40,032 nt of DNA from the sequence record PZ490076.1, one strand, 5' to 3'. The stretch comes from a phage. Shown piece by piece: positions 2,315 through 40,032 of the stretch; within the stretch, counting starts at the first letter, position 1; each line of letters opens with the position of its first letter. Under the pieces are notes generated by a model. The model did no database searches. It had not been told where the DNA came from and was given only the letters and a program-made list of their open reading frames with translations. The position numbers and the translations under genes are program-made.

Positions 2315-2337
2315 CTTCCCTATAGTGATAGTTAAGT
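2315..2337 (-). promoter_or_regulatory. Phage RNAP promoter (phiOR-like), downstream of the large terminase gene
   Basis: Minus strand CTTAACTATCACTATAGGGAAGACC; matches the family consensus ACTAAACTATCACTATAGG. Confidence 0.65.
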
Positions 2338-2431: not shown

Positions 2432-4219
2432 CTAGTGGAACGTAACGTAGGACCCTAGTCCAAGCTCGTCGTCCGTATCGTGAGTTACCCGGACCCCATT
2501 GTCCCAGAACTCAGTGTGGATGGACTCGAAGCCTTTCCGTGGGTTCTCCATCTGTTCTTCCAGCCACTCCTCAGTGACTTCACGTTCGCCTTTGTTGGCA
2601 TCCTTCGCCATAGACTCAACGAAGAACTGTACACCGATAGCCAGCGCATCAAGTCGGTCATCGTGTGCCAATGCTCCACGTTCACGAGAGATACGTGTCA
2701 TCTGGTAGAAGAGAGAGTAGATAGGATTACGAACACCATCCTTATCAGAGGCAGACTGGTAATCTTGGACGATAGCAGCAGCGTTGATGATAAGTCGGTG
2801 AGACCCCATGATAGGCTCCAGAACGTCACAGATGCGGAGCTCCTTCTGACCCTTACTCTTCACTTCAGTTACAGCAGCAGGATGAATACGGGAAGCTACA
2901 GGCTTGAATAGCTCAAGGTACATCCCATCACCGAAGTTACCCTCAATGACGTATTCGTTGACCTTCCACTTACGACCAATCTTAGCTAAGGCTTCCAGAG
3001 TAGAGTCTTCATAGCCACCTCGCATACCGCCAACTTCCATAGCGAAGATGTAGCCGTTTAGCTGATACAGTACCGCATAACCAGTTTCATCCTTACCACG
3101 ACCACTAGGGTCAATGACTAGAATCTTCTGGGTGTACGAACTGAAGGCAGAACCTACAGTCTGATACGTGTGGTATGAGTCACCCATGAGTCCAACGTTA
3201 GGAACGTCCTCACGCTTGTTCTGAGGGTTAGGAAGCCATTGGTATACCATTGGGCTAGACGCTGGGTCCAAGTCGGCTACGATAAGGTCACGGAGCTTCA
3301 GAGGGTACTTCTCGGCATCACTCAGGTTAGGGTTAAGCATGAACTGTAGAGCGAAGCCAGCTTTACCATAGGACAGCTCACGTTCCTTCAGGTCCGTATC
3401 ATCGAATCGTACCTCATCGGTCGGACGCCAGTAGAAGGACTCAGGGTCCTCTTCCAGTTCTGCCTGAAGCATAGGAGCCAGACGGTCGCCGTAAGACTGC
3501 CAGTCCTTCTTATCGCGTGGGTAGCGAGCGGGCCAGATGGTAGTGGTGTATCCACGGCCTTCCAGCTCACGATACAAGGTCATCTCGTTCTGAGGAGTAC
3601 CTAGATAGATGATTGTACCTCCCGGCTTCAGGATAGCGTCGAACTCTTTTACAAGCTCTGACAGACGGTCTCGTGCAGCCTGAGTCGCTGAGTTGTTAGG
3701 AACCTCAACGTCATCGGCAATCAGGATGTCAGCACGACTACCAGTCAACTGACCAGTGATACCAACGGACTTAACCGAAGGTGAGTGGTCTGGCTTGGCT
3801 GGTCCAACGTCGAAGCTGATAACCGCATCTCGCTGCCCCTGCTTAGGTTTGAGTTCCTGAAGCTGAGGCATGAGGTCGATGATTCGCTTGATGAAGATGG
3901 AGTTCGCATCGGCTCGTTCCTTTGAGGCCGACACAATCATGAACTTCAAGTCTGGGTTGTTCCATAGTTTCCAGACCACGAAACCACAGGTCAGAAACGA
4001 CTTACCAATACCACGGAAAGCCTGAAGGATGAAGCGGCGATTATCCCCAGCAGCCAGCTTCTTACACATATCTATCTGGCAGCGGGTTGGAACCGGAAGG
4101 CTAAGAGCTTTCCAGAGAACGAAGATGAAGAACACGAAGTCCTCTTTCATCCTTTTTGTCACGGCCTCATTACGCTCTTGCGGCGTTAACTGCATCAATT
4201 GCCTCCTGTTCAGTATCAA
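2432..4219 (-). CDS. Terminase large subunit (T7 gp19 homolog), 595 aa
   Basis: Translation aligns with T7 gp19 from [18 protein letters not shown] onward ([53 protein letters not shown]). Confidence 0.97.
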
Positions 4220-4999: not shown

Positions 5000-5381
5000 A
5001 TGTCTCCTTTAGCATTCTGCTATGAGTTGACTTAGCCCATTCCACGACTTCCTTCAGATTCTTAGTAGGAGCATGAGTTTCTTTCTTACCTCCCATCCTA
5101 ATGTCACCATAGTACATAGTTACACCTTGACGTTTAGCAAACCTAGAGTATACGCCTTTAGGTAGTTCCCTAGAGGATACAGTGTTAGCCTTGTTTGCGC
5201 CTTTAGGTATGCACCTAAGGTTTGACAGTTCGTTATTCATAGGATTCCTGTCAATGTGGTCTATGACGTAGCCATCTGGGATAGGACCGTAGGCTTCCTC
5301 CCATAGTAATCTATGAACCCCATGAACCTTACCATTGCGAGTAACCTTCCAGTACCCACCACTTATGTAAGCGTCTTCCAT
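4980..5381 (-). CDS. Free-standing HNH homing endonuclease, 133 aa, between small terminase and Rz
   Basis: HNH motif (GKVHGVHRLLWEEAYGPIPDGYVIDHIDRNPMNNELSNLRCIPKGANKAN); strong RBS AAGGAGGT 5 nt upstream of ATG. Confidence 0.85.
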   Translation of the reverse strand: MEDAYISGGYWKVTRNGKVHGVHRLLWEEAYGPIPDGYVIDHIDRNPMNNELSNLRCIPKGANKANTVSSRELPKGVYSRFAKRQGVTMYYGDIRMGGKKETHAPTKNLKEVVEWAKSTHSRMLKETYGISKI

Positions 5382-5396
5382 ATAACCTCCTTAGTG

Positions 5397-5438
5397 TTAA
5401 CCATAAAGGCCACTACCTATAGTAATGACCTTGAGTCT
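5397..5438 (-). promoter_or_regulatory. Candidate RNase III processing site (copy A of a conserved 42-bp element), upstream of the HNH gene / downstream of gp18
   Basis: Minus strand AGACTCAAGGTCAT-N-GTGGCCTTTATGGTTAA; same element occurs at 29280-29318 and 36245-36286; resembles T7 RNase III sites (..GCCCTTTATGAT..) and sits where T7 has R18.5. Confidence 0.4.
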
Positions 5439-5443
5439 AACAC

Positions 5444-5707
5444 TTATTGAACACCATACCCTGTGTCATTATCCTCAGTCGCTGAAAGTACCTTATCGTA
5501 CTCTGCGTTCAGGGCCTCCATATCAGCCAGCGTCTTCTCGTCCACAGACACCTTACTTAACACAAAGTTGTGACGAGCAAGCAGCTTCTCAATGGCGTTG
5601 TAGAGCTGAGGTGAACGCTTAGTGTCATCCCGCAAGTCTTGCAGCATAAGTCGAGCACGCTCAGTATCAAGCATCAAGAGGAACTTCTCTAAGTCCATCT
5701 GCGTCAT
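5444..5707 (-). CDS. Terminase small subunit / DNA maturation protein A (T7 gp18 homolog), 87 aa
   Basis: Similarity to T7 gp18 (FLLMLDTERARLMLQDL...RSPQLYNAIEKLLARH). Confidence 0.85.
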   Translation of the reverse strand: MTQMDLEKFLLMLDTERARLMLQDLRDDTKRSPQLYNAIEKLLARHNFVLSKVSVDEKTLADMEALNAEYDKVLSATEDNDTGYGVQ

Positions 5708-5898
5708 GTTTTACCACCTCCTTTAATCGTTTTGTAGACTAGCACACCAATCTGGACAACGGTGTACGCGATAGCTGCAACGTAGAACCATTCGTTCAGT
5801 GTAAGTCCGAAGAAGAACCGACTGGCACCATCAGCCGCAGCGGTCCCGACGATAGGAGAGGCTTTAAGGACCTCATTCTTGAAGTCTAACTCAATCAT
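5704..5898 (-). CDS. Class II holin (T7 gp17.5 homolog), 64 aa
   Basis: Similarity to T7 gp17.5 (FFFGLTLNEWFYVAAIAYTVVQIG). Confidence 0.8.
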   Translation of the reverse strand: MIELDFKNEVLKASPIVGTAAADGASRFFFGLTLNEWFYVAAIAYTVVQIGVLVYKTIKGGGKT

Positions 5899-6031
5899 AA
5901 AACCTCCAGTTTAAAGCGGGTCGTCCGTGACCCAAAGTTGTTACATACGTTGGTTAGCGTGTAGTTAGCCTCTACCTCCGCAACTTTCTAACATCTACCC
6001 CACCAACTTAATGGCAAAATGGTTTTGTTTA

Positions 6032-9000
6032 TTACTTCTGTTCAAGAGCAGAAAGTCTGGCTTCGATTCTTTCCAGTTTTCTTCTCTGATAAGCGGCTTC
6101 AGCAAAGAAAATTCCGTCAGGCCGAACACCCCACTCCTCACCCTCTTCGTGAATAACCACCTCGGTGTATACAGGTTCTTCCGTAGTGGTGACATTACCC
6201 TCCTCGTCAGTGTGTTCAATGATTTCATTGTGCGAAAATACCGTATCGGTCATCCGTGGATACTTGTCATAGCACAGAACAGCATAACGACAATTCGTAC
6301 TGTTTTCGTCCATCAGCCCATGTGCAATGAATACATCACGAATTTGCTGAGCAATAACCCCGAAGTGAATACGAGCATCATTGCCTTTCAGTTGAACAGC
6401 ATCTAACCACTGGTACATGATGTAGTGAACGTCACTCCAGGCATCAAGGAAAGCATCATCAAAAACTACCGGCTCTGTTTTCCTCTCCCCGTTAGAAGTA
6501 ACAATAGGGTTACTTCCGAGGTATGCAGTGGTGAAACGGTTTCTAGGCCCACCAAGCGCAGTGACGTTATCGTTATAAGGCTTAACATCAGCACTCTGAA
6601 ATAGATGCTCATCTCCGTTGTAAACTATTCGCCTTGAGTCGGTGTTATTTGCACCATAAAGCGTAATCTGTGCGCCAGTCGTTGCACTGGTGCCTTCACC
6701 CCCGCAAAATATGATGCGCTGCCCTGCCGGGTTATCAGTCGGTATAGATTTTCCGATAAACCCATATTCACCTTCCATTAAAACTTCAGAGCGAATGTTA
6801 CGACTGGTGCTGGCTCTAATGGTCACATGACCTAAACCCAAATCCCCTGTAAATTCCATTGGCGCAGGAACAGTGCGAATCCCATTCGTATCAAAAAACA
6901 CGGGAACAGCTCTGTTAGGTACAGCACCATACCTGAAATCCCTTGAAACACGATTGTCTGGGCCAATCTTCATTTTGTAGCAATACAAATCTGAGGGATG
7001 ACCATCTGATTTGAATGGGTCCTTCGCTGAGTTATCTCCATATGCCCATGGGTTAAAATGGTCCTCTCCACCAAACATGTAGTAGATGTAACTATCCTTC
7101 ACAACTACCGAACCAACACCTACACCTGAGTTAACTATTCCGCCCTGATAAATCTGGTCAGTGATGTTAACCCATTCAATACCATCTGCATTCCAATTGT
7201 TTACATTCAAGCGTGCATAGAAGGTGCGAGGATAAGATGCCTTGTAACGATCATCTGGTGCACCTGCTTCCCATTCATTTTCTGCACGTTCTGAACCAAA
7301 CATAATAAGGTCATCCCCTACTTTAGCAAAAGGCAATGTAGTATGATGAACATTATGTGGAAATCTCAGTGACTCCCAAGTCTGACCTATGTCTCTACTA
7401 CGATGCAAAGAGCTACCTAGTCTATCGCTCCTAGTGCCACGGGTGATGAGGTACAATACACCATCGTAATACTTGATGCAGGGTTCTGAGGCATCTGACT
7501 CATACTCTGAAGGTATCTGACGACGAACATAGTTAGCCGGATTATCGAAAGCGTTAGGGAAGTAGAATAGTCCAACTTCGCGTGGAGCTACATCACCTTG
7601 GTGATAACCCATAACAAAGCCATTGTTATCAATAGCAGAAAAGCTATGAACTTTAGTCACACGAGGAATTAAGCCAAGATCTGTCTTACGCCATGGCGAT
7701 TTATGGAATGAAGTACCCATATGCCAGTTCTTTCCAGCGTTATTCAAATCTGAGTCCTGCTGGTTAGGTGTAAGAACCGTGAAGTTGTCCTTATCTATTA
7801 CCGTTGCAACCTTCATATCACCTGATACACCTGTTACCGCAGAGTTAGAGAAGTTAACAAAGTCACCCACGAACAGCCCGTGATCAGGTACATGGATTGT
7901 TGCATATCGCTGATTTGCTGCCTTCGTAATACCACCAGTGAGATGCAGGCTACGAGACATGGGGCGATCCCACAATGCACAATTGGTTAATGCGTTCTTG
8001 GCTAAAGTACGTGTTTCAATCATGGCAAACAGACGGTTGCGACATACACCCATACTCATACAATGATAGTTCACTGTAGGGTAATCTGGATGCAGATCAG
8101 TTAACCACTCTGGAGTAGACCATGTTTGACCATCATCACCAGACTTAACCCATGATACGTGAAGACGGCTAACACCATGACGATCGCTACCCATGTAAGG
8201 TGCATATATCACATTCTCATATACGAACGCTTTATCCTGAGGCCACGCATTGTAATAAGGGGTGTCCGTTATCTTGAACAGCTCACCCTGAACAAATTCT
8301 TCAGAGACATAATAAAGAGGTTGTCCGGGAATGCGCTCATAAACGAAACGAGTGTTGATGAAGCGACTAATGTCAGGCAGGGATGTGACCTTATATGTCT
8401 TCCCATTGCCATTAAGCCTTTGTCCAACCGGTGTGTCGTTTAATGCGCTCGTTAACGCTGCTGTATCATCAGTGACACCATCCCCTTTAGCACCCCAACC
8501 ACGGACATCTTTTTCATCAAGCCAGCGTGCTCTATGTAATTCAGGGTAGAGTATTGCCCCTTCCGGGTTTGAAATCTGACTTCTTAAAGCAGCATCACCA
8601 ACACTAACCCACGCACCTAATCCAATCCCACCGGAAGTTTCAGGAGTTGAACCAGCAGGAACGTTCTTTGGAAGCGTACCATCCCAGCGGTAATAATCAC
8701 CATCCTCTTCCCATAGCAGGACCTCGCTCCATGTTGTAACGTTGTAGCCTTTCTCGAAGGAGCGACGGGTAATATAGCCAATTAGACCAGCTTCCCTGAT
8801 ACTCTCAGCGATTCGTCGTGCTTCGTCCTCGCTATCCTTAGCGTTGCCAGCAGAGCTGCTAGCAGCATCGGCATATTCCTTCGCTAAGTCAACCGTTTGG
8901 TCTCGACCTTCTTCTGCAATATGGATAGCCTGAAGCTCTGAATTGGTCAGGTCACTAGCTGTCAACACTGAGCCATTCCTGAAGTCTACCACTAAGTCAG

Positions 9001-9226
9001 TTCCAGTCTGACGGTGAATACGAACGATGTCGAAACCTGATTGGTCAACCAACATCTCAATCATCGTTGGATTAAGGAATCGGTAATCTCGACCAACTTC
9101 CAGTACACGGTTCAGGGTAGGGTTAGAGCTATTCACCAGCGTAACAACAACAAACGTTCTGGCTAGGTAGTCGAACTCAATCCTGTACTGAGTGTTTCCT
9201 GAAGGGAATTGTGTAATCGTGGACAT
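6032..9226 (-). CDS. Tailspike with endosialidase (endo-N-acetylneuraminidase) catalytic domain and C-terminal intramolecular chaperone domain, 1064 aa (gene 17 position)
   Basis: N-terminus resembles the T7 gp17 particle-binding domain (EFDYLARTFVVVTL...DLVVDFRNGSVLTASDL); two sialidase Asp-box motifs (SGDDGQTW, SRDIGQTW); C-terminal chaperone-like tail; length equals the K1F endoNF length as I recall it. Confidence 0.85.
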   Translation of the reverse strand: MSTITQFPSGNTQYRIEFDYLARTFVVVTLVNSSNPTLNRVLEVGRDYRFLNPTMIEMLVDQSGFDIVRIHRQTGTDLVVDFRNGSVLTASDLTNSELQAIHIAEEGRDQTVDLAKEYADAASSSAGNAKDSEDEARRIAESIREAGLIGYITRRSFEKGYNVTTWSEVLLWEEDGDYYRWDGTLPKNVPAGSTPETSGGIGLGAWVSVGDAALRSQISNPEGAILYPELHRARWLDEKDVRGWGAKGDGVTDDTAALTSALNDTPVGQRLNGNGKTYKVTSLPDISRFINTRFVYERIPGQPLYYVSEEFVQGELFKITDTPYYNAWPQDKAFVYENVIYAPYMGSDRHGVSRLHVSWVKSGDDGQTWSTPEWLTDLHPDYPTVNYHCMSMGVCRNRLFAMIETRTLAKNALTNCALWDRPMSRSLHLTGGITKAANQRYATIHVPDHGLFVGDFVNFSNSAVTGVSGDMKVATVIDKDNFTVLTPNQQDSDLNNAGKNWHMGTSFHKSPWRKTDLGLIPRVTKVHSFSAIDNNGFVMGYHQGDVAPREVGLFYFPNAFDNPANYVRRQIPSEYESDASEPCIKYYDGVLYLITRGTRSDRLGSSLHRSRDIGQTWESLRFPHNVHHTTLPFAKVGDDLIMFGSERAENEWEAGAPDDRYKASYPRTFYARLNVNNWNADGIEWVNITDQIYQGGIVNSGVGVGSVVVKDSYIYYMFGGEDHFNPWAYGDNSAKDPFKSDGHPSDLYCYKMKIGPDNRVSRDFRYGAVPNRAVPVFFDTNGIRTVPAPMEFTGDLGLGHVTIRASTSRNIRSEVLMEGEYGFIGKSIPTDNPAGQRIIFCGGEGTSATTGAQITLYGANNTDSRRIVYNGDEHLFQSADVKPYNDNVTALGGPRNRFTTAYLGSNPIVTSNGERKTEPVVFDDAFLDAWSDVHYIMYQWLDAVQLKGNDARIHFGVIAQQIRDVFIAHGLMDENSTNCRYAVLCYDKYPRMTDTVFSHNEIIEHTDEEGNVTTTEEPVYTEVVIHEEGEEWGVRPDGIFFAEAAYQRRKLERIEARLSALEQK

Positions 9227-9273: not shown

Positions 9274-9296
9274 GTTTCCTATAGTGATAGTTTAGT
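9274..9296 (-). promoter_or_regulatory. Phage RNAP promoter (phi17-like) upstream of the tailspike gene
   Basis: Minus strand GGACTAAACTATCACTATAGGAAACTGG; the gp16 TAA stop codon lies inside the promoter. Confidence 0.7.
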
Positions 9297-16540: not shown

Positions 16541-16590
16541 AAGGGCCTATAGTCCCTATAGTGATAGTTAAGGTAAATCTATAGGCCCTT
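16541..16590 (-). promoter_or_regulatory. Perfect 12-bp inverted repeat (AAGGGCCTATAG / CTATAGGCCCTT) enclosing the phi13-like promoter; candidate RNA hairpin / RNase III site (T7 R13 position)
   Basis: Plus strand 16541-16552 aagggcctatag and 16579-16590 ctataggccctt are exact reverse complements with a 26-nt loop. Confidence 0.4.
16551..16573 (-). promoter_or_regulatory. Phage RNAP promoter (phi13-like)
   Basis: Minus strand CCTTAACTATCACTATAGGGACTATAGG. Confidence 0.65.
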
Positions 16591-19680: not shown

Positions 19681-20855
19681 TTAGTTGTTGGACTCAGCCA
19701 GTTTAGCGGCCCTGTTCGCAGCACGAGTACGCGCAGCTTTCTGTTGAGGAGTTAGAGTCTCCTCTTCAGGTGCAGCCTCTACTGTAGCGACGTTAGGTTG
19801 GCTAAAGGTGCTTACGTCGCTAGGCTGAAAACCAGTGCGCCAGCCGCTTCAGGACGCAGACCGCCGTGACCCATAGCGTATTTACCAACAATCAGGTCGC
19901 CCTGAGCATCGACGTCACGGTCACGTTCCAGCGCCAAGTCACGCAGCTTCACAGTACCCACAGCAGAACGGTGAGAGAACAGACCCACGACGTTGTTAAT
20001 AGCGACTTTAACGTCGCCAGTAGCAGTCGCCGGGAATGCGTGTTTCTGACCTGAAGCGATAGTGATACCGTCTTCACCACGGGTCGCACCAGCACCACCC
20101 TGTACCAGATGCGGAACTTCAACAACAACGAAGCCCATCACGTTACGGATGTTACCAGTCTCTGGGTCAATCAGCGCAGCATAGTTAGCAGCGTTCGGCA
20201 TCAGAGCAGCGAGGATCGCAGAGTAGTTGTCAGGCGTGGTGTAGAAGTAACGGTCGCCAGCAGGAACGTAGTTGGAGGTCAGCTGCGCACGAGCAATGGT
20301 CAGTTGACCAATGATTGCTTCACCCAGTTTAGCCGGGGTGTCGAGGTCAGCTTTCTTACCAACTTGCAGTACGGAAGCAGTACCAAGACCAGCGATGTTC
20401 TCGTTGGATGCAGCCGGGAGGTTACACAGGATCGCAATTTCAGCCAGCACCGCACCATCAGCAGCGATAGCCAGAGCTTCGCCCAACTGGTTGGAATACT
20501 CGCCAGCAACGTCATAGTGGTTCATCGCGTCTTCAATGTCGAAAATCATCACATCGGCAGTCAGCAGGCCATCAATGGTAATATTTTTCTCGGTATGTTT
20601 GATACCTTTACGCTTATCGGACAGTCGCTCACCCGGAGCCAGATACACACCAGAGGTGCGACCCATGACCGGGAACTGAGCAGACTTACCGTTCTGAATG
20701 GTACGGACAATATGCTTGTCAGCAGTTACAGAGCGGCGAGTGAATGCTGTCAGGACTTCGCCAGCAAAGACCTTCAGGAACAACGCCAGAGCGTCGGAAC
20801 CAGATTTGCCTTTGCCTTGGTCTGTACCTACTTTCTGACCCGGAACGTTTGCCAT
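19681..20855 (-). CDS. Minor capsid protein 10B, predicted product of -1 ribosomal frameshifting at GGTTTTC near the end of 10A (adds about 44 aa)
   Basis: Slippery heptamer G GTT TTC at 19827-19833, 4 codons before the 10A stop; the -1 frame stays open for 44 codons to TAA at 19681-19683, immediately followed by the Tphi-like terminator; same arrangement as T7 10A/10B. Confidence 0.65.
19812..20855 (-). CDS. Major capsid protein 10A (T7 gp10A homolog), 347 aa
   Basis: High similarity to T7 gp10A throughout (ALFLKVF.GEVLTAF, GKSAQFPV, KHTEK.ITIDGLLTADV, AALMPNAANYAALIDPE, HRSAVGTVKLRDLALER, KYAMGHGGLRPEAAG). Confidence 0.97.
   Translation of the reverse strand: MANVPGQKVGTDQGKGKSGSDALALFLKVFAGEVLTAFTRRSVTADKHIVRTIQNGKSAQFPVMGRTSGVYLAPGERLSDKRKGIKHTEKNITIDGLLTADVMIFDIEDAMNHYDVAGEYSNQLGEALAIAADGAVLAEIAILCNLPAASNENIAGLGTASVLQVGKKADLDTPAKLGEAIIGQLTIARAQLTSNYVPAGDRYFYTTPDNYSAILAALMPNAANYAALIDPETGNIRNVMGFVVVEVPHLVQGGAGATRGEDGITIASGQKHAFPATATGDVKVAINNVVGLFSHRSAVGTVKLRDLALERDRDVDAQGDLIVGKYAMGHGGLRPEAAGALVFSLAT
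19827..19833 (-). other. Programmed -1 frameshift slippery site (GGTTTTC) in the capsid gene
   Basis: Seen in sequence; matches the T7 gene 10 frameshift heptamer as recalled. Confidence 0.6.
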
Positions 20856-20957
20856 ATGATAATTCTCCTATTCAATTGAAAGATAAAGTATATTACTTAC
20901 TGTACGCCCAATCCGTATGGACTGAAGTAATAGGGGAACCTTGAGTCTTTCTCTTGG

Positions 20958-20980
20958 TCTCCCTATAGTGATAGTTTAGT
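20958..20980 (-). promoter_or_regulatory. Phage RNAP promoter (phi10-like) upstream of the capsid gene
   Basis: Minus strand GGACTAAACTATCACTATAGGGAGACC; best match to the family consensus, +1 GGGAGA as in T7 class III promoters. Confidence 0.8.
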
Positions 20981-21945: not shown

Positions 21946-21968
21946 TGTTCCTATAGTGATAGTTTAGG
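21946..21968 (-). promoter_or_regulatory. Phage RNAP promoter (phi9-like)
   Basis: Minus strand GCCTAAACTATCACTATAGGAACAAC; the portal TAA stop lies inside the promoter. Confidence 0.7.
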
Positions 21969-24766: not shown

Positions 24767-24789
24767 AGTCCCTATAGTGATAGTTTAGT
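24767..24789 (-). promoter_or_regulatory. Phage RNAP promoter (phi6.5-like)
   Basis: Minus strand CACTAAACTATCACTATAGGGACTTTAGG. Confidence 0.7.
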
Positions 24790-29279: not shown

Positions 29280-29318
29280 TAATCATAAAGGCCACTCGAT
29301 GTGAATGACCTTGAGTCT
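29280..29318 (-). promoter_or_regulatory. Candidate RNase III processing site (copy B of the conserved element), 21 nt upstream of the DNA polymerase start
   Basis: Minus strand TAGACTCAAGGTCATTCACATCGAGTGGCCTTTATGATTAGAC. Confidence 0.4.
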
Positions 29319-29322
29319 AGAC

Positions 29323-31202
<1,880 letters not shown>

Positions 31203-31249: not shown

Positions 31250-31272
31250 CATCCCTAAGGTGATAGTTTAGG
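31250..31272 (-). promoter_or_regulatory. Variant phage RNAP promoter (CACCTTAGGG instead of CACTATAGG) upstream of gene 4
   Basis: Minus strand GCCTAAACTATCACCTTAGGGATGGG; upstream half matches the consensus, the -4/-3 positions deviate. Confidence 0.4.
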
Positions 31273-31507: not shown

Positions 31508-31966
31508 TTAACCACGGTCGGAAGTGACCAGTTCATTGGTAGACAGCCAGCGTTGCAAGTCGAAACTTGGACACGCCTTAGGTGCTACGTCATGGTGTGC
31601 TTTGATTTCTGCCTGAGGATACAGGACCTTCAGGTCAGCCAGCTTGTTGCGCAGGGAGTTCATCTGGGCTGGAGTGAAGTTAGCTTCAAACTGACCCTTA
31701 GCGTTGATTCCGCCTACAAGGCAGACGCCTACAGACCGTGAGTTCCAGTCCTTAACGTGTGACCCTACGACATTGACCGGGCGACCCTCTTCCACAGTGC
31801 CATCACGTTTGATGATAAAGTGGTAGCCTACGTCCAGCCAGCCTTGCTGCTTGTGCCACATACGGATGGTCTCTACCCCGATGTCCATATCTGGCTTGGT
31901 AGCCGAACAGTGAACGAAGATAGCGTCAGTCCGGGACCGTGGGTTGAACTGTACCTTACTTACCAT
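31508..31966 (-). CDS. N-acetylmuramoyl-L-alanine amidase / RNAP-inhibiting lysozyme (T7 gp3.5 homolog), 152 aa
   Basis: Near-identical blocks to T7 gp3.5 (DAIFVHCSATKP, HKQQGWLDVGYHFIIKRDGTVE, GVCLVGGI, FTPAQM, APKACPSFDL, NELVTSDRG). Confidence 0.95.
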   Translation of the reverse strand: MVSKVQFNPRSRTDAIFVHCSATKPDMDIGVETIRMWHKQQGWLDVGYHFIIKRDGTVEEGRPVNVVGSHVKDWNSRSVGVCLVGGINAKGQFEANFTPAQMNSLRNKLADLKVLYPQAEIKAHHDVAPKACPSFDLQRWLSTNELVTSDRG

Positions 31967-33616: not shown

Positions 33617-33639
33617 CTGTCCTACAGTGATAGTTTAGG
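33617..33639 (-). promoter_or_regulatory. Phage RNAP promoter (phi2.5-like), variant CACTGTAGG
   Basis: Minus strand GACCTAAACTATCACTGTAGGACAGACG; the gp2 TAA stop lies inside it. Confidence 0.55.
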
Positions 33640-33793
33640 TCTCAGGACGAATCCGTCCGACCACAAACCCAGCGTCCTCATACTCTTGGGACTTCAGGGT
33701 AGCCTCTTCAAGAGACTTTGCGTACACCGGAACCTCGAAGGACTGAATGTGACCCTCAAGCTCCACGATGTACTTCTTCTCTACGTCAGTCAT
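33635..33793 (-). CDS. Host RNA polymerase inhibitor (T7 gp2 homolog), 52 aa
   Basis: Hand translation [52 protein letters not shown] resembles T7 gp2 (..[35 protein letters not shown]..); below the 60-aa track cutoff. Confidence 0.6.
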
Positions 33794-33968
33794 AAACCGC
33801 GCTCCTTCCATTGGTTGTATAACGTGATGTAGTCCGGGTTGAGAGTCTTCTCATACATCTCCCGGCACCACTCACTTGGTTTTACCATATTCCACCTCTA
33901 TCGCCCAATACATTAAACGCAATAATGCACCTACTCCTGCACAGATTAATCCGAAGTACAGAATATCA

Positions 33969-34557: not shown

Positions 34558-34580
34558 TTGTCCTATAGTGATAGCTTAGG
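34558..34580 (-). promoter_or_regulatory. Phage RNAP promoter (variant, AAGCTATCACTATAGG)
   Basis: Minus strand CCCTAAGCTATCACTATAGGACAACC. Confidence 0.6.
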
Positions 34581-34616: not shown

Positions 34617-34653
34617 CAAAGCAAAGAAACCCAGCAGTCCTAAGACCACTGGG
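34617..34653 (-). terminator. Intrinsic terminator downstream of the ligase gene (T7 TE position)
   Basis: Minus strand CCCAGTGGTCTTAGGACTGCTGGG (10-bp stem, 4-nt loop, two G-U pairs) followed by TTTCTTTGCTTTG. Confidence 0.6.
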
Positions 34654-34664
34654 TTGACATTTAG

Positions 34665-35768: not shown

Positions 35769-36031
35769 TATGATTTGCTCCATGTGTCGAGTTGGTCAGC
35801 GAGACCATTGAGGAATTCTGTTGCAGTGTTGTACAGTACGTCTTCATCGTAGTGTGCGAAGGACTCAAGAGCGAATATGTTACCCGCCCGGTCCTCTACC
35901 CTGAGTCTCATACACTCTTGGCGTGACGTAAGGTCTTGAAACTCCTGAGATATGACAGCGAAGTCTAACTGATAGAGCCTGTTACACGCTGCTTTGAAAG
36001 CGTTTAGGTTGCCACTATAAAGTCGGCCCAT
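35768..36031 (-). CDS. T7 gp1.2 homolog (dGTPase inhibitor family), 87 aa
   Basis: N-terminus MGRLYSGNLNAFKAACNRLYQLDFAVI matches T7 gp1.2 (MGRLYSGNLAAFKAATNKLFQLDLAVI). Confidence 0.8.
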   Translation of the reverse strand: MGRLYSGNLNAFKAACNRLYQLDFAVISQEFQDLTSRQECMRLRVEDRAGNIFALESFAHYDEDVLYNTATEFLNGLADQLDTWSKS

Positions 36032-36036
36032 AGCGT

Positions 36037-36215
36037 TATGCTCCTACGAAATACTTCTCTTGGTTGACCATAGAGTCTTTTCCTTCAGCGTTACGGAAAG
36101 CACCCTTTACACCACCGCCACGCTTGGTCTTGTTCAGCTTGCGTCCCTTCGGAATATAATCTTCAGTCTGCTGACGTTCACGGATGCGCTCGAAGTTGAT
36201 AGTGTTCTGATACAT
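36037..36215 (-). CDS. T7 gp1.1 homolog, 59 aa
   Basis: Hand translation MYQNTINFERIRERQQTEDYIPKGRKLNKTKRGGG... contains KGRKLNKTKR as in T7 gp1.1; AGGAG RBS 7 nt upstream. Confidence 0.6.
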
Positions 36216-36244
36216 GGTGTAGCTCCTGATTGAATGAGTTAGGG

Positions 36245-36286
36245 TTAATCATGAAGGCCACGACTCTGAGTCATGACCTTGAGTCT
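36245..36286 (-). promoter_or_regulatory. Candidate RNase III processing site (copy C of the conserved element; T7 R1.1 position) between the promoter and gene 1.1
   Basis: Minus strand TAGACTCAAGGTCATGACTCAGAGTCGTGGCCTTCATGATTAA. Confidence 0.4.
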
Positions 36287-36308
36287 AATCCTATAGTGAT
36301 AGTTTAGG
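36286..36308 (-). promoter_or_regulatory. Phage RNAP promoter (phi1.1-like)
   Basis: Minus strand CCCTAAACTATCACTATAGGATTAGAC. Confidence 0.7.
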
Positions 36309-36383
36309 GTTAACCTCTTCTGCGTTGGATTAAAGTGAATACTGCTAGTGCTCCCAGCCACAAGGCCAGTAACTGTAAGTCTG

Positions 36384-36599
36384 TCATTTGGTCTGCTCCA
36401 GCTTGGACACTGCGTCTTTCAGGTATTTCTCGTGGCTAGATTCCACAAGACAGACGAGGGTCTTGAATGGGACGTTAAGCTGCTTTGACATCTCGGTAGG
36501 AATGACCGTGGTCTTCACCAGACCCTTGCCGTTGTGTTCTGTTACGGTCACGATTTGAGTCCCGCCCTTAACGCCAGCCTGCTTGTGTGCAAATTTCAT
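36384..36599 (-). CDS. Hypothetical protein, 71 aa, immediately downstream of the RNAP gene
   Basis: AGGAGAGAG RBS directly after the RNAP stop codon; no recognised homolog. Confidence 0.5.
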   Translation of the reverse strand: MKFAHKQAGVKGGTQIVTVTEHNGKGLVKTTVIPTEMSKQLNVPFKTLVCLVESSHEKYLKDAVSKLEQTK

Positions 36600-36613
36600 A
36601 ACTCTCTCTCCTG

Positions 36614-39295
36614 TTAAGCGAATGCAAAGTCTGAAGACAATATGTCCTCGATATTCAGTTTACCTTTCTTCGGTAGCTCAGGCAACTTGTCGCGCTGGCT
36701 CTCGTGAAGCTGGTATTCGAACTGCTCGTAGAAGTCAAGCAGCACATCGTTGTCGCGGTAGGTCTCGACCATCGTCTCACGGACACCACGGAACAGATAT
36801 TCAGCGTCAGCCGGGATGGTCCCGAAGCTATCGTGAATCACTGCGAATGACATCACGCCATACTTGCGGTGCGTGTGGACTACAGTCTTGCGGAGGTGGC
36901 TACCATCTTGTGAGTGGACGAAGTTCGGGCTAATTCCTGACTCCTGCTTGTGTTTGTCCAGCTCTTTCTTCGTACCTCTGTTGACGGTAGGCTGAAGGTT
37001 GAATGACCCTAAGAACATCAGGTTCAGACGAGTGGTATCCTTCTTGCGGTATTCCTGCCAGACCGGGAAACCATCAGGTGTTACCCAGTGTACCGGAAGG
37101 CAAGGCTTCAGGATTTCTCCAGTCTTCTTGTCCTTCACCTCAGCAGCCAGCAGCTTGGCAGCGCCTTGAAGCCACTTCATCGCGTCAACCGCAGCAACTA
37201 CGGTCACACTCACAGCTTCCCAAATCATCTTAGCCATGAAGCGAGACGCTTGGCTAGGCTCGGTGAACATAGCGCCAGACCCTGAGTCAATCGCTGGCAT
37301 CACGATGTCCTCGTAAACTTGGTCTGCGAAGCCGTACTCTTTCGACCCGTATGCCAGAGTCATGACTGAACGCTTAGTGACCTTACGTGACATCCCGTAT
37401 GTCAGCCACTGACGGGCCAGCTCTCGTGTCCCCAGCTTGATACGTTCGGTAATCTCACCAGTTTTCTTGTCCTCGTGAGTGACCATCTCGTTGTCAGTAC
37501 CGTTAATCAGCAGGACTTTAAGCTCCTCCTCAATGCGGTCAGACACAATGCGGTAGATGTCTTGTACCATACCGGATGGCGTCAGGTTTACTGCATGCCC
37601 ACCGATGTGGTCACGAAGCATCGCACTGAAGTGCTGAATACCAGAGCAGGACCCATCGAACGCTATCGGCAGCGAGCAGGAGTAAGACAGGCCGTGGTGC
37701 ATTACGCCAGCATACTCGAAGCAGAACGCGAGGAAACAGAACGGAGAGTCTAACTTGCCCCACCACTCAATACTATCCATCGGTGCCTTAGCAGCAGCCA
37801 TGATGTTTTCGTGGTTGTCTTCCACCCACTTGATGCGCTCCTCGAAGGTGACTTTATCGACACCCGCGCAGTTTGCACCGTGGACCTTCAGCCATTTGAA
37901 ACCGTCAGCACCAATAGGCTTGCCGACTGCCAGAGTCAGGAGACCCTTCTGCATGTCGTTACCCTGAGGGTTGAACATCGGCACAGCGTAGACGCGCCCT
38001 CGCCAATCCATGTTGTACGGGAACCAGATGGCCTTGAACTGAGAGAACTTGTTAGCTTGGTTAACGATAAAGCTCAGTGACAATCTGCGCGACTGTCTGG
38101 CCTTCTCGCGGCGATAGATACCAGCAGCAGCCTTCTTCCATGCCTTGAGTTCCTCCTCGGTCTCACCAGCATAGTCCTCAGGCTTCAGCGGCTCCATCTG
38201 AGGGATGTCATCAATAGGTGTGTTGTTCAGCTTCTCGACCATGTTCACCACGTCCAATACCTTCTTGTTCACTTTCCAAGGTGTATTCTGGATGATATTC
38301 ACAGCGTCATAGACTTCAGGCATGTATACGTCTTCATAACGTGCTACCGCAGACTTAGACCCTAAGCGAATCAATGGTAACGGTCTGCGACCTTTGGCCC
38401 AGTACCCACCGCCTACGACACCAGTCCACGGCTTAGGTGGAACGACGCAAGGCTGGTAGACTGGAGCGATACCCGCAAGGCTGAATCCTCGTTGTGCCAT
38501 CTTCTTGACCCAGAAGTCTGACAGGTGGACCATCTCTACGTCAGTCGCTGCATTGCCAGCACCGTACCGCTTAAGCTCGACCAGTTGTGTTGACTGGATG
38601 ACAATCTCGAGCATCTTGATGCCAACGTGGACAGCCTCTGTAGGACTCCAAGTCCCCCACGCATCTTCCAGTTGACCTTGCTCCAGCATGGACGCCTCGA
38701 CCGCTTGCATGTAGGCTTTCTTGTAGGACGCCCCGGCCCGCTTATTCAGGTTATCAGCTATCGCCTTCTTGAAGTGCTCTTTCTCTTTGTCACGGATGCG
38801 ACCGAAGCGGATTTCGTCCTCAAGTGTGCGACCTATCGCGGAGGCCATAGGTGTAATTGGTATCCCTTCGGGCTTGACCAGCTTGGAGAGTATGACCTTC
38901 AGTATGATAACCGCAGCGGACTCACAGGAGATGCGCATAGAGCGGTCCTTGACGGCCTTCTCTTCAGTGCTCAACATGGTGAACGCTACGCTAGGACGAG
39001 AGGTTGACAGCTTTCCGTCTGGACCTTCATGCCACTCCCTGACGGCTTGCGCAATCTTAGGGACCAGAGTCTGCATCAAAGGCTTGGCGACCTGATTGTC
39101 TGCCAGTTCCCCGCGCTCAGTCTGTCGCTCAAGGTTTTTGATGAAACGTCGCTCGCCTTCAGTGTATGCCTCATGCTCAAGCTGAAGCTGTTTAACTGCA
39201 AGGTCTTGCCCGTAGTGGTCGGCCAGCAGGTTAAACGGCTCAATGGCGTTCGACACATCAGAGAAGTCGTGTTTGTCAATAGAGATGACGCTCAT
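36614..39295 (-). CDS. Single-subunit DNA-dependent RNA polymerase (T7 gene 1 homolog), 893 aa
   Basis: Collinear with T7 RNAP including C-terminus ...DILSSDFAFA (T7 ...DILESDFAFA), RGRVYAVPMFNPQGNDM, SGIQHFSAMLRD, PNFVHSQDGSHLRKT, LIHDSFGT. Confidence 0.98.
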   Translation of the reverse strand: MSVISIDKHDFSDVSNAIEPFNLLADHYGQDLAVKQLQLEHEAYTEGERRFIKNLERQTERGELADNQVAKPLMQTLVPKIAQAVREWHEGPDGKLSTSRPSVAFTMLSTEEKAVKDRSMRISCESAAVIILKVILSKLVKPEGIPITPMASAIGRTLEDEIRFGRIRDKEKEHFKKAIADNLNKRAGASYKKAYMQAVEASMLEQGQLEDAWGTWSPTEAVHVGIKMLEIVIQSTQLVELKRYGAGNAATDVEMVHLSDFWVKKMAQRGFSLAGIAPVYQPCVVPPKPWTGVVGGGYWAKGRRPLPLIRLGSKSAVARYEDVYMPEVYDAVNIIQNTPWKVNKKVLDVVNMVEKLNNTPIDDIPQMEPLKPEDYAGETEEELKAWKKAAAGIYRREKARQSRRLSLSFIVNQANKFSQFKAIWFPYNMDWRGRVYAVPMFNPQGNDMQKGLLTLAVGKPIGADGFKWLKVHGANCAGVDKVTFEERIKWVEDNHENIMAAAKAPMDSIEWWGKLDSPFCFLAFCFEYAGVMHHGLSYSCSLPIAFDGSCSGIQHFSAMLRDHIGGHAVNLTPSGMVQDIYRIVSDRIEEELKVLLINGTDNEMVTHEDKKTGEITERIKLGTRELARQWLTYGMSRKVTKRSVMTLAYGSKEYGFADQVYEDIVMPAIDSGSGAMFTEPSQASRFMAKMIWEAVSVTVVAAVDAMKWLQGAAKLLAAEVKDKKTGEILKPCLPVHWVTPDGFPVWQEYRKKDTTRLNLMFLGSFNLQPTVNRGTKKELDKHKQESGISPNFVHSQDGSHLRKTVVHTHRKYGVMSFAVIHDSFGTIPADAEYLFRGVRETMVETYRDNDVLLDFYEQFEYQLHESQRDKLPELPKKGKLNIEDILSSDFAFA

Positions 39296-39364
39296 ACTTA
39301 AAGTCCTTGTTATTAGTCTTTCACTTAAAGTCTCTTTGGTCTTTCACTTGGAGTCTTAGACCTT

Positions 39365-39387
39365 GAGTCCTATAGTGATAGTTAAGT
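39365..39387 (-). promoter_or_regulatory. Phage RNAP promoter located directly upstream of the RNAP gene
   Basis: Minus strand GACTTAACTATCACTATAGGACTCAAGG, 70 nt upstream of the RNAP start codon. Confidence 0.6.
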
Positions 39388-39392
39388 CATAA

Positions 39393-39719
39393 TTACTTGC
39401 ATATCAGTGGGTTAGCGTGAAGATGACTGAAGTCACCGTGAGTCGTGTGCTTGATGGTTGACCGTTGGTCTATCGCCTTCCAGCCTGAGACTAAAAGTTT
39501 ACCATCGTCAGTGATCGGTCGTCCGCCATACGCCAGACACATCAGTTCGGACTTATGGCCCTCTGCCCGGAGTCGTGCCTGTAGTACACGGTCCCGCTCC
39601 TGCTGTTGACGTGCGGCGTGACTTGACGTTCCGTGACGATACCCGGTAGCCAGTAGGCTTAACATATTCATTTCTGCGTCCATAGAGTGTACCAAATTAA
39701 TCCCGTATGACTTGTTCAT
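39393..39719 (-). CDS. Hypothetical early protein, 108 aa from MNKSYG (the track gives a longer 125-aa form starting at 39770)
   Basis: ORF between the kinase-like gene and the RNAP gene; TAATG coupling with the upstream 65-aa ORF; no recognised homolog. Confidence 0.4.
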   Translation of the reverse strand: MNKSYGINLVHSMDAEMNMLSLLATGYRHGTSSHAARQQQERDRVLQARLRAEGHKSELMCLAYGGRPITDDGKLLVSGWKAIDQRSTIKHTTHGDFSHLHANPLICK

Positions 39720-39916
39720 TACAGTTTGCTCCCAAGAGTTGCTATATCCCAGACGTTCGCGAGGTTGCATATGAATCGTCCGTTAGGCTGACGTACAGTC
39801 CAGCGGACCATACGTACATAGTTGAATTTATAGACTTTACGCGCTTTGTTGATGTCTCTCACCAGCACGTAGGCGATAAGTCCATAGCCTATGGCTATCA
39901 ATATTGCGCTACTCAT
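39719..39916 (-). CDS. Hypothetical small early protein with a hydrophobic N-terminus, 65 aa
   Basis: ORF track; N-terminus MSSAILIAIGYGLIAYVLV looks membrane-anchored; start lies in the window-end overlap region. Confidence 0.35.
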   Translation of the reverse strand: MSSAILIAIGYGLIAYVLVRDINKARKVYKFNYVRMVRWTVRQPNGRFICNLANVWDIATLGSKL

Positions 39917-40032
39917 AGTGATTTCCGTTTAATACAGTCGTATATCCCATACCCTATTAGCCAGATGACCGGAGATAAGCATACCCAATGTCCAACACTC
40001 ATAGTTAACCTCTATCAATTTAAGTGGTAATC

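What the first reader, a model, noticed from the sequence alone, without database searches (positions are those of the whole stretch)
39296..39392. A phage-RNAP promoter sits directly upstream of the RNAP gene (possible positive autoregulatory loop)
T7 has no T7 promoter upstream of gene 1; gene 1 is transcribed only by host RNAP. Here a consensus-type promoter (39365-39387) lies 70 nt upstream of the RNAP start codon, so the polymerase could amplify its own transcription. The leader also contains a direct repeat AGTGAAAGAC (twice, 16 nt apart) of unknown function.
Basis: seen in the sequence. Interest (0 to 1): 0.45.

Follow-up and report, generated by a model that had tools for sequence, protein, structure and literature searches.

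The report
Phage promoter upstream of polymerase gene
A K1F-type coliphage carries a full-consensus copy of its own RNA-polymerase promoter 75 nt upstream of the polymerase gene, so the enzyme can very probably boost its own synthesis; the promoter is real and conserved, but it is already annotated in close relatives.

Summary
The window is a Kayfunavirus (K1F-like) genome, 100% identical to Escherichia phage BUCT788, with all genes on the minus strand. The reported promoter is real. The site ACTTAACTATCACTATA|GGACTC (39387..39365, +1 = 39370) is one of ten consensus copies, all on the minus strand, against zero expected by chance. It lies 75 nt upstream of the ATG of the 893-aa T7-type RNA polymerase, with no terminator between.

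It is functional by evolutionary criteria. It is invariant in 17 K1F-group sequences, present in 219 phage records, and found in 20 of 21 loci whose polymerase is at least 79% identical. It is absent from 58 T7/T3/KP32-like loci, which carry an RNase III-type hairpin there instead. In three lineages it changes together with the polymerase's specificity loop and that phage's other promoters.

Positive feedback is therefore the best reading, though inferred and not demonstrated. It is not new: EcoDS1 and CR8 records annotate this promoter, and autoregulation was proposed for phages phiA318 and LUZ100. Two details were wrong. T7 does have a promoter (phiOL) far upstream of gene 1. The repeat copies have a 23-nt period and belong to a degenerate tandem array.

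The leader is unusually conserved and unexplained. A clade-specific excess of GAC-N5-GTC was noticed in passing.

The parts
39365..39387 (-). phi1: phage-RNAP promoter, -17..+6 (ACTTAACTATCACTATA|GGACTC); +1 = 39370; class II-type start GGAC
   Evidence: same sequence annotated as 'phi' promoter in EcoDS1; invariant in 17 K1F-group sequences
39296..39370 (-). 75-nt 5' UTR (leader) of the phi1 transcript; 62.7% A+T, 64% purine; diversity 0.013 against 0.14 at adjacent third-codon positions
   Evidence: no Rfam match; no covarying structure; fold z = 0.0
39359..39369 (-). GACTCAAGGTC at +2..+12: identical to the 5' arm of the genome's three RNase III-type hairpins, but the matching GGCCTT 3' arm is missing; also a GAC-N5-GTC site
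39338..39362 (-). weak hairpin GGUCU (39362..39358) / AGACC (39342..39338); the 48-nt segment 39372..39325 that contains it (with outer pairs such as CUC/GAG) folds at -9.8 kcal/mol, z = -1.15
39336..39356 (-). tandem repeat unit 1 (contains AAGTGAAAGAC at 39349..39339)
39313..39333 (-). tandem repeat unit 2 (contains GACTTTAAGT at 39332..39323 and AAGTGAAAGAC at 39326..39316); 86% identical to unit 1, period 23 nt
39296..39308 (-). Shine-Dalgarno AAGGA (39308..39304) and the third GACTTTAAGT copy (39305..39296), which abuts the ATG
36614..39295 (-). gene 1: single-subunit RNA polymerase, 893 aa; 99% identical to K1F RNAP and 63% to T7 RNAP
39393..39770 (-). upstream early ORF (125 aa, gp0.38-like, PHROG 7066, function unknown); a 5-nt gap (39392..39388) separates its stop codon from the promoter
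36286..36308 (-). next copy of the promoter (phi1.1-like, GGATTA start), followed by an RNase III-type hairpin at 36254-36280
34558..34580 (-). promoter copy (class II-type start GGACAA)
33617..33639 (-). promoter copy (CACTGTAGG variant) upstream of the gp2.5-like gene
24767..24789 (-). promoter copy (GGGACT start, class III-type)
21946..21968 (-). promoter copy
20958..20980 (-). promoter copy (GGGAGA start) upstream of a 347-aa ORF (19812..20855) that I take to be the major capsid gene, by position only (not tested)
   Evidence: ORF
16551..16573 (-). promoter copy
9274..9296 (-). promoter copy upstream of a 1064-aa ORF (6032..9226) that I take to be the tail-spike gene, by position only (not tested)
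   Evidence: ORF
2315..2337 (-). promoter copy (phiOR-like), downstream of the terminase gene; -17..-1 identical to phi1
34628..34655 (-). intrinsic terminator-like hairpin plus T run just after the ligase gene (TE-like end of the host-RNAP early unit that contains gene 1)
   Evidence: T7's TE has the same position
31508..31966 (-). gp3.5-type amidase (T7 lysozyme homologue): inferred brake on the phage RNAP
   Evidence: Pfam Amidase_2, E = 4e-16; the regulatory role is inferred from T7
33635..33811 (-). gp2-type inhibitor of host RNA polymerase
   Evidence: Pfam RNA_pol_inhib, E = 5e-20

Best explanation
The site is phi1, a functional class II-type promoter for the phage's own single-subunit RNA polymerase. 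It lies inside the host-transcribed early operon, 75 nt upstream of gene 1.

Proposed sequence of events:
1. After infection, host RNA polymerase starts at the left-end early promoters and reads through the small early genes and gene 1, up to a TE-like terminator after the ligase gene.
2. The first polymerase molecules made then initiate at phi1, at G 39370.
3. These transcripts carry gene 1 and the downstream class II genes, so polymerase synthesis becomes self-amplifying and independent of host RNA polymerase. The phage's gp2 homologue shuts the host enzyme off.
4. By analogy with T7, the loop would be limited by the gp3.5 lysozyme homologue, which in T7 binds the polymerase and preferentially depresses class II promoters.

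What is shown: the promoter's presence, quality, conservation and covariation with polymerase specificity; the absence of a terminator; and the presence of the partner genes. What is inferred: initiation at 39370, the gain of the loop, and the brake.

The 75-nt leader is a separate, strongly conserved element. It begins with the 5' arm of the phage's RNase III-type hairpins but lacks the 3' arm. It continues as degenerate tandem units of the form GAC-N5-GT(N). My best guess is that it is a mostly unstructured, A-rich translation-initiation region derived from a decayed R1 processing site. That part is weakly supported.
For: Promoter quality:
- Ten consensus copies, all co-directional with the genes, against 0 expected.
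- phi1 is identical to the phiOR-like copy from -17 to -1.
- Its GGAC start groups it with the early-region copies at 36306, 34578 and 33637. The late-region copies start GGGA or GGAA.

Cognate enzyme:
- The encoded RNAP is 99% identical to K1F RNAP.
- K1F RNAP drives PK1F promoters specifically in vivo (PMC12218169).

Conservation:
- The same promoter and leader occur in K1F, in EcoDS1 and in 219 phage records, 172 of them at least 95% identical over 111 nt.
- The surrounding 3.5 kb is mostly 90-95% identical.
- In 17 K1F-group sequences diversity is 0.000 for the promoter and 0.013 for the leader, against 0.14 for RNAP third-codon positions.

Covariation:
- K1F type: AACTATCACTATAGG with loop TTRLNLMFLGSFNLQPT.
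- L016/L042: AAACCCTCACTATAGG with loop TTRLDLMFLGTFRLQPT.
- CR8: AAGGAAGGTACACTATAGG with loop TTRIKLMFMGVQYRPT.
- In each lineage the copy upstream of gene 1 matches that phage's other promoters.

Clade distribution: 20 of 21 loci with RNAP at least 79% identical have it within 300 nt upstream of gene 1, against 0 of 58 with RNAP at most 64% identical.

Circuit context:
- No terminator-like site in 36000-40032, in 1-2500, or in the 441 bp missing from the window.
- A TE-like terminator lies at 34628-34655.
- The left end is homologous to the EcoDS1 left end, where host promoters are annotated.
- gp2 and gp3.5 homologues are present.

Precedent: positive feedback from a phage promoter upstream of the RNAP gene has been proposed for Vibrio phage phiA318 (PMC4099482) and Pseudomonas phage LUZ100 (PMC10134795).
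Against: - I found no transcript 5'-end data for any Kayfunavirus in the searchable literature, so initiation at 39370 is untested.
- Conservation and covariation show the site is recognised by the polymerase. They do not show that boosting gene 1 is the selected function. The same promoter also serves every downstream class II gene.
- In the Dev2-like subgroup the gene-1 copy carries a fixed -2 T>A change, whereas that phage's other promoters keep T. It may be deliberately weak there.
- The lysozyme brake is extrapolated from T7.
- The leader's function is not established. There is no significant fold (z = 0.0), no covarying pairs and no Rfam family.
Confidence: 0.78

Rival explanations
1. 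The promoter is functional, but self-amplification of gene 1 is incidental. Its selected role would be as the first class II promoter for the downstream genes. Alternatively it would act as a transcription-primed replication origin, or as the first handle for polymerase-driven genome entry, as proposed for T7 phiOL and phi1.1A/B.
For: - phi1 is the first phage promoter after the genome's left end. No phiOL-like copy lies between the phiOR-like promoter and phi1.
- T7-type transcripts run through many genes, so phi1 RNA would also cover genes 1.1-1.3 and beyond.
- In T7 the primary origin is a promoter pair followed by an A+T-rich stretch (my own knowledge).
- The leader is A-rich and repeat-containing.
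Against: - A separate promoter already sits about 310 nt after gene 1 to serve the class II genes.
- The leader is only 62.7% A+T.
- Genome entry cannot depend on phi1. All of gene 1 must be inside the cell and transcribed before any phage polymerase exists (inference).
- Whatever else it does, any phi1 transcript must contain gene 1, because there is no terminator in the 75 nt.
Confidence: 0.14
2. The repeat-containing leader is an operator. Under this reading, the tandem GAC-N5-GT(N) units bind an unknown sequence-specific factor, either protein or RNA, that gates transcription from phi1 or translation of gene 1. That would keep the autocatalytic loop in check.
For: - The leader is about ten times less diverse than adjacent third-codon positions (0.013 against 0.14), which is more than a spacer needs.
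- The exact 11-nt and 10-nt direct repeats are unlikely by chance (P = 0.003).
- The units resemble GAC-N5-GTC, which is over-represented 4-5-fold genome-wide in exactly this clade.
- CR8 and the Dev2-like phages also carry two to three related units in their otherwise diverged leaders.
Against: - No candidate binding protein was identified.
- Only the first unit is a perfect GAC-N5-GTC site.
- The exact motifs AAGTGAAAGAC and GACTTTAAGT occur nowhere else in the genome.
- Conservation could equally reflect translation-initiation requirements or recent recombinational spread of this segment.
Confidence: 0.12
3. The site is a chance or relic promoter-like sequence that the polymerase does not use.
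For: No direct transcript evidence is available. The BUCT788 GenBank record does not annotate it.
Against: - Zero matches are expected by chance.
- The site is invariant where neighbouring silent sites vary.
- It tracks three different polymerase specificities in three lineages.
Confidence: 0.03

Closest known systems
The 'phi' promoter annotated upstream of gene 1 in Escherichia phage EcoDS1 (EU734172, 2244-2266), and the identical sequence in K1F (DQ111067, about 2473-2495)
   Same: Same 23-bp promoter, same 75-nt leader with 0-1 differences, and same position between gp0.38 and gene 1.
   Different: Nothing material. The window's own closest record, BUCT788, simply lacks the annotation and also starts its RNAP CDS 148 codons too late.
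'Predicted promoter' upstream of gene 1 in Citrobacter phage CR8 (Caroctavirus, HG818824, 3356-3378)
   Same: Same architecture: a promoter of the phage's own type about 80-90 nt upstream of the gene 1 ATG, and a leader with repeated CTTTAAGT-type units.
   Different: Different promoter specificity (GGTACACTATAGG) and a different RNAP specificity loop. The leader sequence has largely diverged. CR8 keeps a gene 0.7-like ORF.
T7 early region: phiOL (nt 405), E. coli promoter C (3113) and the RNase III site R1 upstream of gene 1
   Same: Same gene order. The host-transcribed early operon contains gene 1 and ends at TE after gene 1.3.
   Different: T7 and 58 T7/T3/KP32-like loci have no phage promoter within 300 nt of gene 1. 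They have a stable hairpin there instead: -21.2 kcal/mol in T7, with visible compensatory variation among the loci. T7's only upstream phage promoter is phiOL, 2.8 kb away.
Phage promoters upstream of the RNAP gene in Vibrio phage phiA318 (phi-A8) and Pseudomonas phage LUZ100 (phi1)
   Same: A cognate phage promoter immediately upstream of the polymerase gene, or of the kinase plus polymerase genes. The authors interpret it as autoregulation or a positive feedback loop (PMC4099482; PMC10134795).
   Different: Distant Autographiviridae with unrelated promoter sequences. In LUZ100 the loop is thought to be gated by a MarR-like repressor in a temperate context. No such regulator is evident here.
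Synthetic T7 'autogene' (T7 RNAP gene placed under a T7 promoter)
   Same: The same circuit logic of a polymerase transcribing its own gene. It is used as a self-amplifying expression device (PMC1500874 and PMC6395690, listed; the original Dubendorff and Studier construct is from my own knowledge).
   Different: It is engineered and needs added repression to be tolerated. Here the arrangement is natural, embedded in an operon that supplies the trigger, and runs in a cell that is going to lyse anyway.

Membership tests
T7-group (Studiervirinae) phage-RNAP promoter | About 23-bp sequence (-17..+6) matching the consensus repeated through the same genome, ending in the TATA-G initiation motif | tested here: met
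   10 copies against 0 expected. phi1 is identical to another copy over -17..-1.
T7-group (Studiervirinae) phage-RNAP promoter | Co-directional with the genes and placed between genes or at gene ends | tested here: met
   All copies are on the minus strand. phi1 fills the gap between the stop at 39393 and the ATG at 39295.
T7-group (Studiervirinae) phage-RNAP promoter | Cognate single-subunit RNAP encoded by the same genome, with promoter and specificity loop changing together across relatives | tested here: met
   Pfam RNA_pol. 99% identical to K1F RNAP. Three promoter types paired with three loop types.
T7-group (Studiervirinae) phage-RNAP promoter | Initiation at +1 by the phage RNAP in vitro or in vivo | not testable with these tools
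   No transcript mapping for Kayfunavirus found. K1F RNAP/PK1F activity is shown only on engineered constructs.
Positive autoregulatory loop (natural 'autogene') | Promoter recognised by the gene's own product lies upstream of that gene with no intervening terminator | tested here: met
   75-nt leader with no terminator-like site.
Positive autoregulatory loop (natural 'autogene') | Independent trigger that makes the first product (host-RNAP early promoters reading into gene 1) | tested here: inconclusive
   The left end is homologous to the EcoDS1 left end, where host promoters are annotated. No terminator lies between. The simple sigma-70 scan in the window is not above background.
Positive autoregulatory loop (natural 'autogene') | Product-dependent increase in transcription of its own gene | not testable with these tools
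   Needs an infection time course or a reporter experiment.
T7-type RNase III processing site (R1) upstream of gene 1 | Stable irregular hairpin of about 20 bp with the conserved arms AAGGUC...GGCCUU | tested here: not met
   Three such hairpins exist elsewhere in the window: -18.8 to -23.2 kcal/mol, z = -2.2 to -4.0. The gene-1 leader has only the 5' arm. Its best hairpin is -9.8 kcal/mol, z = -1.15. No covarying pairs.
T7-type primary replication origin (phage promoter plus A+T-rich region) | Phage promoter followed by a strongly A+T-rich stretch | tested here: inconclusive
   A promoter is present, but the leader is only 62.7% A+T. Origin activity is not testable here.

The most novel reading that the evidence does not exclude
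The 75-nt leader may be more than a spacer. It could be an operator built of tandem GAC-N5-GT(N) units, recognised by the same unknown factor that would account for the clade-specific 4-5-fold genome-wide excess of the interrupted palindrome GAC-N5-GTC. That factor would gate the self-amplifying polymerase loop.
Probability: 0.1. Interest if true: 0.6.

Novelty: already known. Interest (0 to 1): 0.25.

Why it matters
The arrangement shows that one branch of the T7 supergroup (Kayfunavirus and Caroctavirus) wires its polymerase gene differently from T7. A cognate promoter replaces the R1 processing hairpin, so polymerase synthesis need not stop when host transcription is shut off.

This bears on how timing and polymerase dosage are controlled in phages now used for therapy, such as the K1F, LM33 and Salmonella Typhi phages. 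It also matters for anyone borrowing K1F polymerase and promoter parts for synthetic circuits.

The arrangement itself is already annotated in relatives. What this analysis adds is the evidence that the promoter is under selection and tracks polymerase specificity, and that the leader is unexpectedly constrained.

Tried and rejected
- Rfam scan of 39100-39600 at E up to 1: only a meaningless snoRNA hit far below threshold.
- Consensus folding of eight leaders: -4.9 kcal/mol with 0 compensatory pairs. Single-sequence folds were not better than shuffles.
- Leader mini-ORFs: in the window, GTG AAA GAC ... TGA followed by GTG AAA GAC TAA. They are not conserved. The first GTG is lost in L016/L042, and in the Dev2-like group the frame runs into the ATG without a stop (sequences). 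Rejected.
- T7 gene-10 'epsilon' translational enhancer (a lead from memory: ACTTTAAG). This 8-mer occurs on the coding strand only at the two leader sites and upstream of no other gene. It is therefore not a general feature of this genome and remains unsupported.
- Pairing or an inverted repeat between the promoter core and the AAGTGA repeats, which would exist only in host read-through RNA. In the window's group the best complement is 6 nt (P = 0.24). It is significant only in the Dev2-like group (11 nt, P <= 0.0005). Rejected for this window.
- phiOL-like promoter upstream in the window or in the missing 441 bp: none.
- The original K1F genome paper and Chen and Schneider 2005 could not be retrieved. 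I therefore could not check whether they discuss this promoter.
- Searches for Kayfunavirus transcript maps found nothing.

Full report
**What the window is.** The 40,032-nt window is a K1F-like podovirus genome (Kayfunavirus, Studiervirinae). A 3.5-kb segment around the finding is 100% identical to Escherichia phage BUCT788 and 93-98% identical to many Kayfunavirus records. All long ORFs lie on the minus strand, so the finding must be read as the reverse complement. The ORF at 39295..36614 encodes an 893-aa single-subunit RNA polymerase. It hits Pfam RNA_pol at E = 7e-106. It is 99% identical to K1F RNAP and 63% identical to T7 RNAP, aligned from residue 1. The start codon at 39295 is therefore secure.

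**Observation check.**
- On the minus strand the sequence reads ...gacTTAACTATCACTATAGGACtcaagg... .
- The 23-bp promoter (-17..+6) occupies 39387..39365, with +1 G at 39370.
- Its downstream edge is 70 nt from the ATG, and the 5' UTR is 75 nt.
- The 19-nt core with up to 3 mismatches occurs ten times, always on the minus strand. Shuffles gave 0.00 expected.
- From -17 to -1 the gene-1 copy is identical to the copy at 2335 and differs from the majority consensus only at -14.
- An eleventh, weaker site (CCTAAACTATCACCTTAGGGA) lies upstream of the primase/helicase gene.
- The direct repeat is also real. AAGTGAAAGAC lies at 39349..39339 and 39326..39316. An exact repeat of this length appears in 0.3% of dinucleotide-preserving shuffles of the leader.
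- The copies have a 23-nt period, not a 16-nt separation. They are the core of a 21-nt, 86%-identical tandem repeat flanked by weaker copies.
- A second exact repeat, GACTTTAAGT, lies at 39332..39323 and 39305..39296, the latter abutting the ATG.

**Is the promoter functional? Comparative evidence.**
- K1F and EcoDS1 carry the same promoter and leader with 0-1 differences.
- A 111-nt query covering promoter, leader and the first codons finds 219 phage records. Of these, 172 are at least 95% identical. The surrounding 3.5 kb is mostly 90-95% identical.
- I aligned 17 distinct K1F-group sequences (the window, 13 of the 80 IMG/VR loci fetched through the polymerase, and K1F, EcoDS1 and Peacock). 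Nucleotide diversity is 0.000 in the promoter and 0.013 in the leader. It is 0.14 at third-codon positions of the adjacent polymerase gene.
- Three lineages have different promoter types, and in each the copy upstream of gene 1 matches that phage's other promoters:
  - K1F type: AACTATCACTATAGG.
  - L016/L042: AAACCCTCACTATAGG.
  - CR8: AAGGAAGGTACACTATAGG.
- The polymerase specificity loops differ in step: TTRLNLMFLGSFNLQPT, TTRLDLMFLGTFRLQPT and TTRIKLMFMGVQYRPT. The Asn-to-Asp change paired with CCC in the promoter parallels the classical T7/T3 discrimination (my own knowledge).
- Of 21 loci with a polymerase at least 79% identical, 20 have a promoter of their own type within 300 nt upstream of gene 1. 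The exception, most likely L015, is cut off by its contig end inside gene 1, so it holds no downstream promoter copy for comparison, although it has the gene-1 copy.
- None of 58 loci with a polymerase at most 64% identical (T7-, T3- and KP32-like) has one, although 44 of them have such promoters downstream of gene 1.
- Those phages carry a hairpin upstream of gene 1 instead, with visible compensatory variation. In T7 it folds at -21.2 kcal/mol.

**Circuit context.**
- By homology with EcoDS1, whose record annotates three host-RNAP promoters near its left end, the mature genome's left end maps to about window position 1737 on the minus strand. Gene 1 therefore begins about 2.9 kb from the left end.
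- No intrinsic-terminator-like site lies between the left end and gene 1, including the 441 bp that the window lacks.
- A 12-bp stem plus T run follows the ligase gene at 34655..34628, the same place as TE in T7.
- No phiOL-like promoter lies upstream, so phi1 is the first phage promoter on the entering DNA.
- phi1 starts GGAC, as do two of the three other early-region copies (the copy at 36306 starts GGAT). The late-region copies start GGGA or GGAA.
- The genome encodes a gp2-type host-RNAP inhibitor and a gp3.5-type amidase.
- The K1F polymerase and promoter pair works specifically in vivo on engineered constructs (PMC12218169).

**Mechanism.**
- The best-supported reading is that host RNA polymerase makes the first gene-1 mRNA, and the polymerase then initiates at phi1 and transcribes its own gene and the genes downstream.
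- This makes polymerase synthesis self-reinforcing and independent of the host enzyme once gp2 acts.
- Presence, quality, selection and specificity-matching of the promoter are shown. Initiation at 39370, the size of the effect, and limitation by the lysozyme homologue (as in T7) are inferred.
- A role mainly in genome entry is unlikely, because gene 1 must already be inside the cell and transcribed before any phage polymerase exists.
- A role in replication priming cannot be excluded.

**The leader.**
- It is 62.7% A+T and 64% purine. It has no Rfam match, no fold better than shuffles (z = 0.0) and no covarying pairs.
- Its first 11 transcribed nucleotides after +1, GACUCAAGGUC, are identical to the 5' arm of three strong hairpins elsewhere in the genome. 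These are at 36254-36280, 29288-29312 and 5406-5432, at -18.8 to -23.2 kcal/mol and z down to -4.0.
- Those hairpins share UAGACUCAAGGUCAU...GUGGCCUU and sit where T7 has RNase III sites (positions from my own knowledge).
- The leader lacks the GGCCUU arm and forms only a weak GGUCU/AGACC hairpin (-9.8 kcal/mol, z = -1.15). It looks like a decayed R1 site fused to a promoter.
- The rest consists of tandem units: GACTCAAGGTC, GACTCCAAGTG, GACTTTAAGTG and GACTTTAAGTA(TG).
- Mini-ORFs, an epsilon-type enhancer and promoter-leader pairing were examined and not supported for this window.
- Why the leader is ten-fold less variable than silent sites remains unexplained. I favour translation-initiation constraints, and an operator function is the interesting alternative.

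**Comparison with what is known.**
- The EcoDS1 record (EU734172) annotates this very site as a 'phi' promoter.
- The CR8 record annotates the equivalent site as a 'predicted promoter'.
- A 2026 Kayfunavirus paper lists a promoter repeat at the 3' end of the gene preceding the polymerase gene, without comment (PMC13298934).
- Autoregulation through a phage promoter upstream of the polymerase gene has been proposed for phiA318 (PMC4099482) and LUZ100 (PMC10134795).
T7 has phiOL at nt 405, upstream of the whole early region, and a minor E. coli promoter C at 3113.
- The finding is therefore correct but already known. I rate it of low to moderate interest.

**Side observations.**
- The interrupted palindrome GAC-N5-GTC occurs 64 times in the window, against 14.1 +/- 4.3 in dinucleotide shuffles (z = 11.6). 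CR8 has 62 (z = 13.4) and T7 only 14 (z = 0.8).
- GAC/GTC is the most enriched of all 64 trinucleotide arm pairs in both the window and CR8.
- The central five bases are almost all different, and sites lie in all reading frames and in intergenic DNA.
- The excess is confined to the same clade that has phi1.
- GAC-N3-GTC is nearly absent in all three genomes. CCT-N5-AGG, the EcoNI site, is nearly absent in the window and T7; CR8 was not evaluated for it.
- I have no explanation for the enrichment.

Noticed in passing
whole window (64 sites; for example 39359-39369, 36262-36272, 36275-36285, 29307-29317, 5427-5437, 1936-1946): The interrupted palindrome GAC-N5-GTC is 4-5-fold over-represented: 64 sites against 14.1 +/- 4.3 in dinucleotide shuffles (z = 11.6). 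N6 is also raised (31 sites). The central bases are almost all different, and sites lie in every frame and in intergenic DNA. Citrobacter phage CR8 shows the same excess (62 sites, z = 13.4) but T7 does not (14 sites, z = 0.8). Among IMG/VR loci the excess is confined to the clade with RNAP at least 79% identical. GAC/GTC is the top-ranked of all 64 arm pairs. No explanation.
   Followed up: partly
whole window; also T7 (L087) and CR8 (L090): GAC-N3-GTC is almost absent: 0, 1 and 1 sites against about 12 expected in the window, CR8 and T7. CCT-N5-AGG (the EcoNI site) is almost absent: 0 against 12 expected in the window and 1 against 10 in T7; CR8 was not evaluated for it. This looks like restriction-site avoidance.
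   Followed up: no
window 36254-36280, 29288-29312, 5406-5432 (minus strand): Three strong hairpins share the sequence UAGACUCAAGGUCAU...GUGGCCUU(U/C)AUG(A/G)UUA, at -18.8 to -23.2 kcal/mol and z = -2.2 to -4.0. They are probably RNase III processing sites: after the phi1.1-like promoter, upstream of the DNA polymerase gene, and upstream of the ORF that starts at 5381.
   Followed up: partly
L085 (PV540240, BUCT788) 5185-7419, equivalent to window 36614-38848: The GenBank record that is identical to the window annotates the RNA polymerase as 745 aa, starting at an internal Met. The full ORF is 893 aa and aligns with T7 and K1F RNAP from residue 1. The true start, its SD and the phi1 promoter are therefore left in an apparent 545-nt 'intergenic' gap.
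   Followed up: yes
L010 about 2400-2500; also L011, L012, L018, L020 and Dev2 (L088 about 2380-2480): In the Dev2-like subgroup the gene-1 promoter carries a fixed -2 T>A change (CACTAAAGG), while the phage's other promoters keep CACTATAGG. The leader also contains an 11-nt perfect inverted copy of that variant core (CTTTAGTGATA against TATCACTAAAG, P <= 0.0005). This could be a hairpin formed only in host read-through RNA, or an antisense partial promoter.
   Followed up: partly
window 31250-31272 (minus strand): An eleventh, variant promoter-like site, CCTAAACTATCACCTTAGGGA, has changes at -4 and -3. It lies 50 nt upstream of the primase/helicase ATG at 31199. CR8 annotates a promoter at the equivalent place.
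   Followed up: no
window about 1737 (minus strand), and between window positions 1 and 40032: The window is circularly permuted relative to the mature genome. By homology with EcoDS1 the left end maps near 1737, so the window runs across the concatemer junction. 441 bp of the early region, including most of an 87-aa ORF, are missing between its two ends.
   Followed up: partly
window 39435-39444 and 20938-20947; also 25 sites genome-wide: The 10-mer GACTCAAGGT with up to 1 mismatch occurs 25 times on both strands, against 3.8 expected. Exact copies follow three promoters (at 39360, 36276 and 20938). This is partly explained by the RNase III-type hairpins and the GAC-N5-GTC excess.
   Followed up: partly
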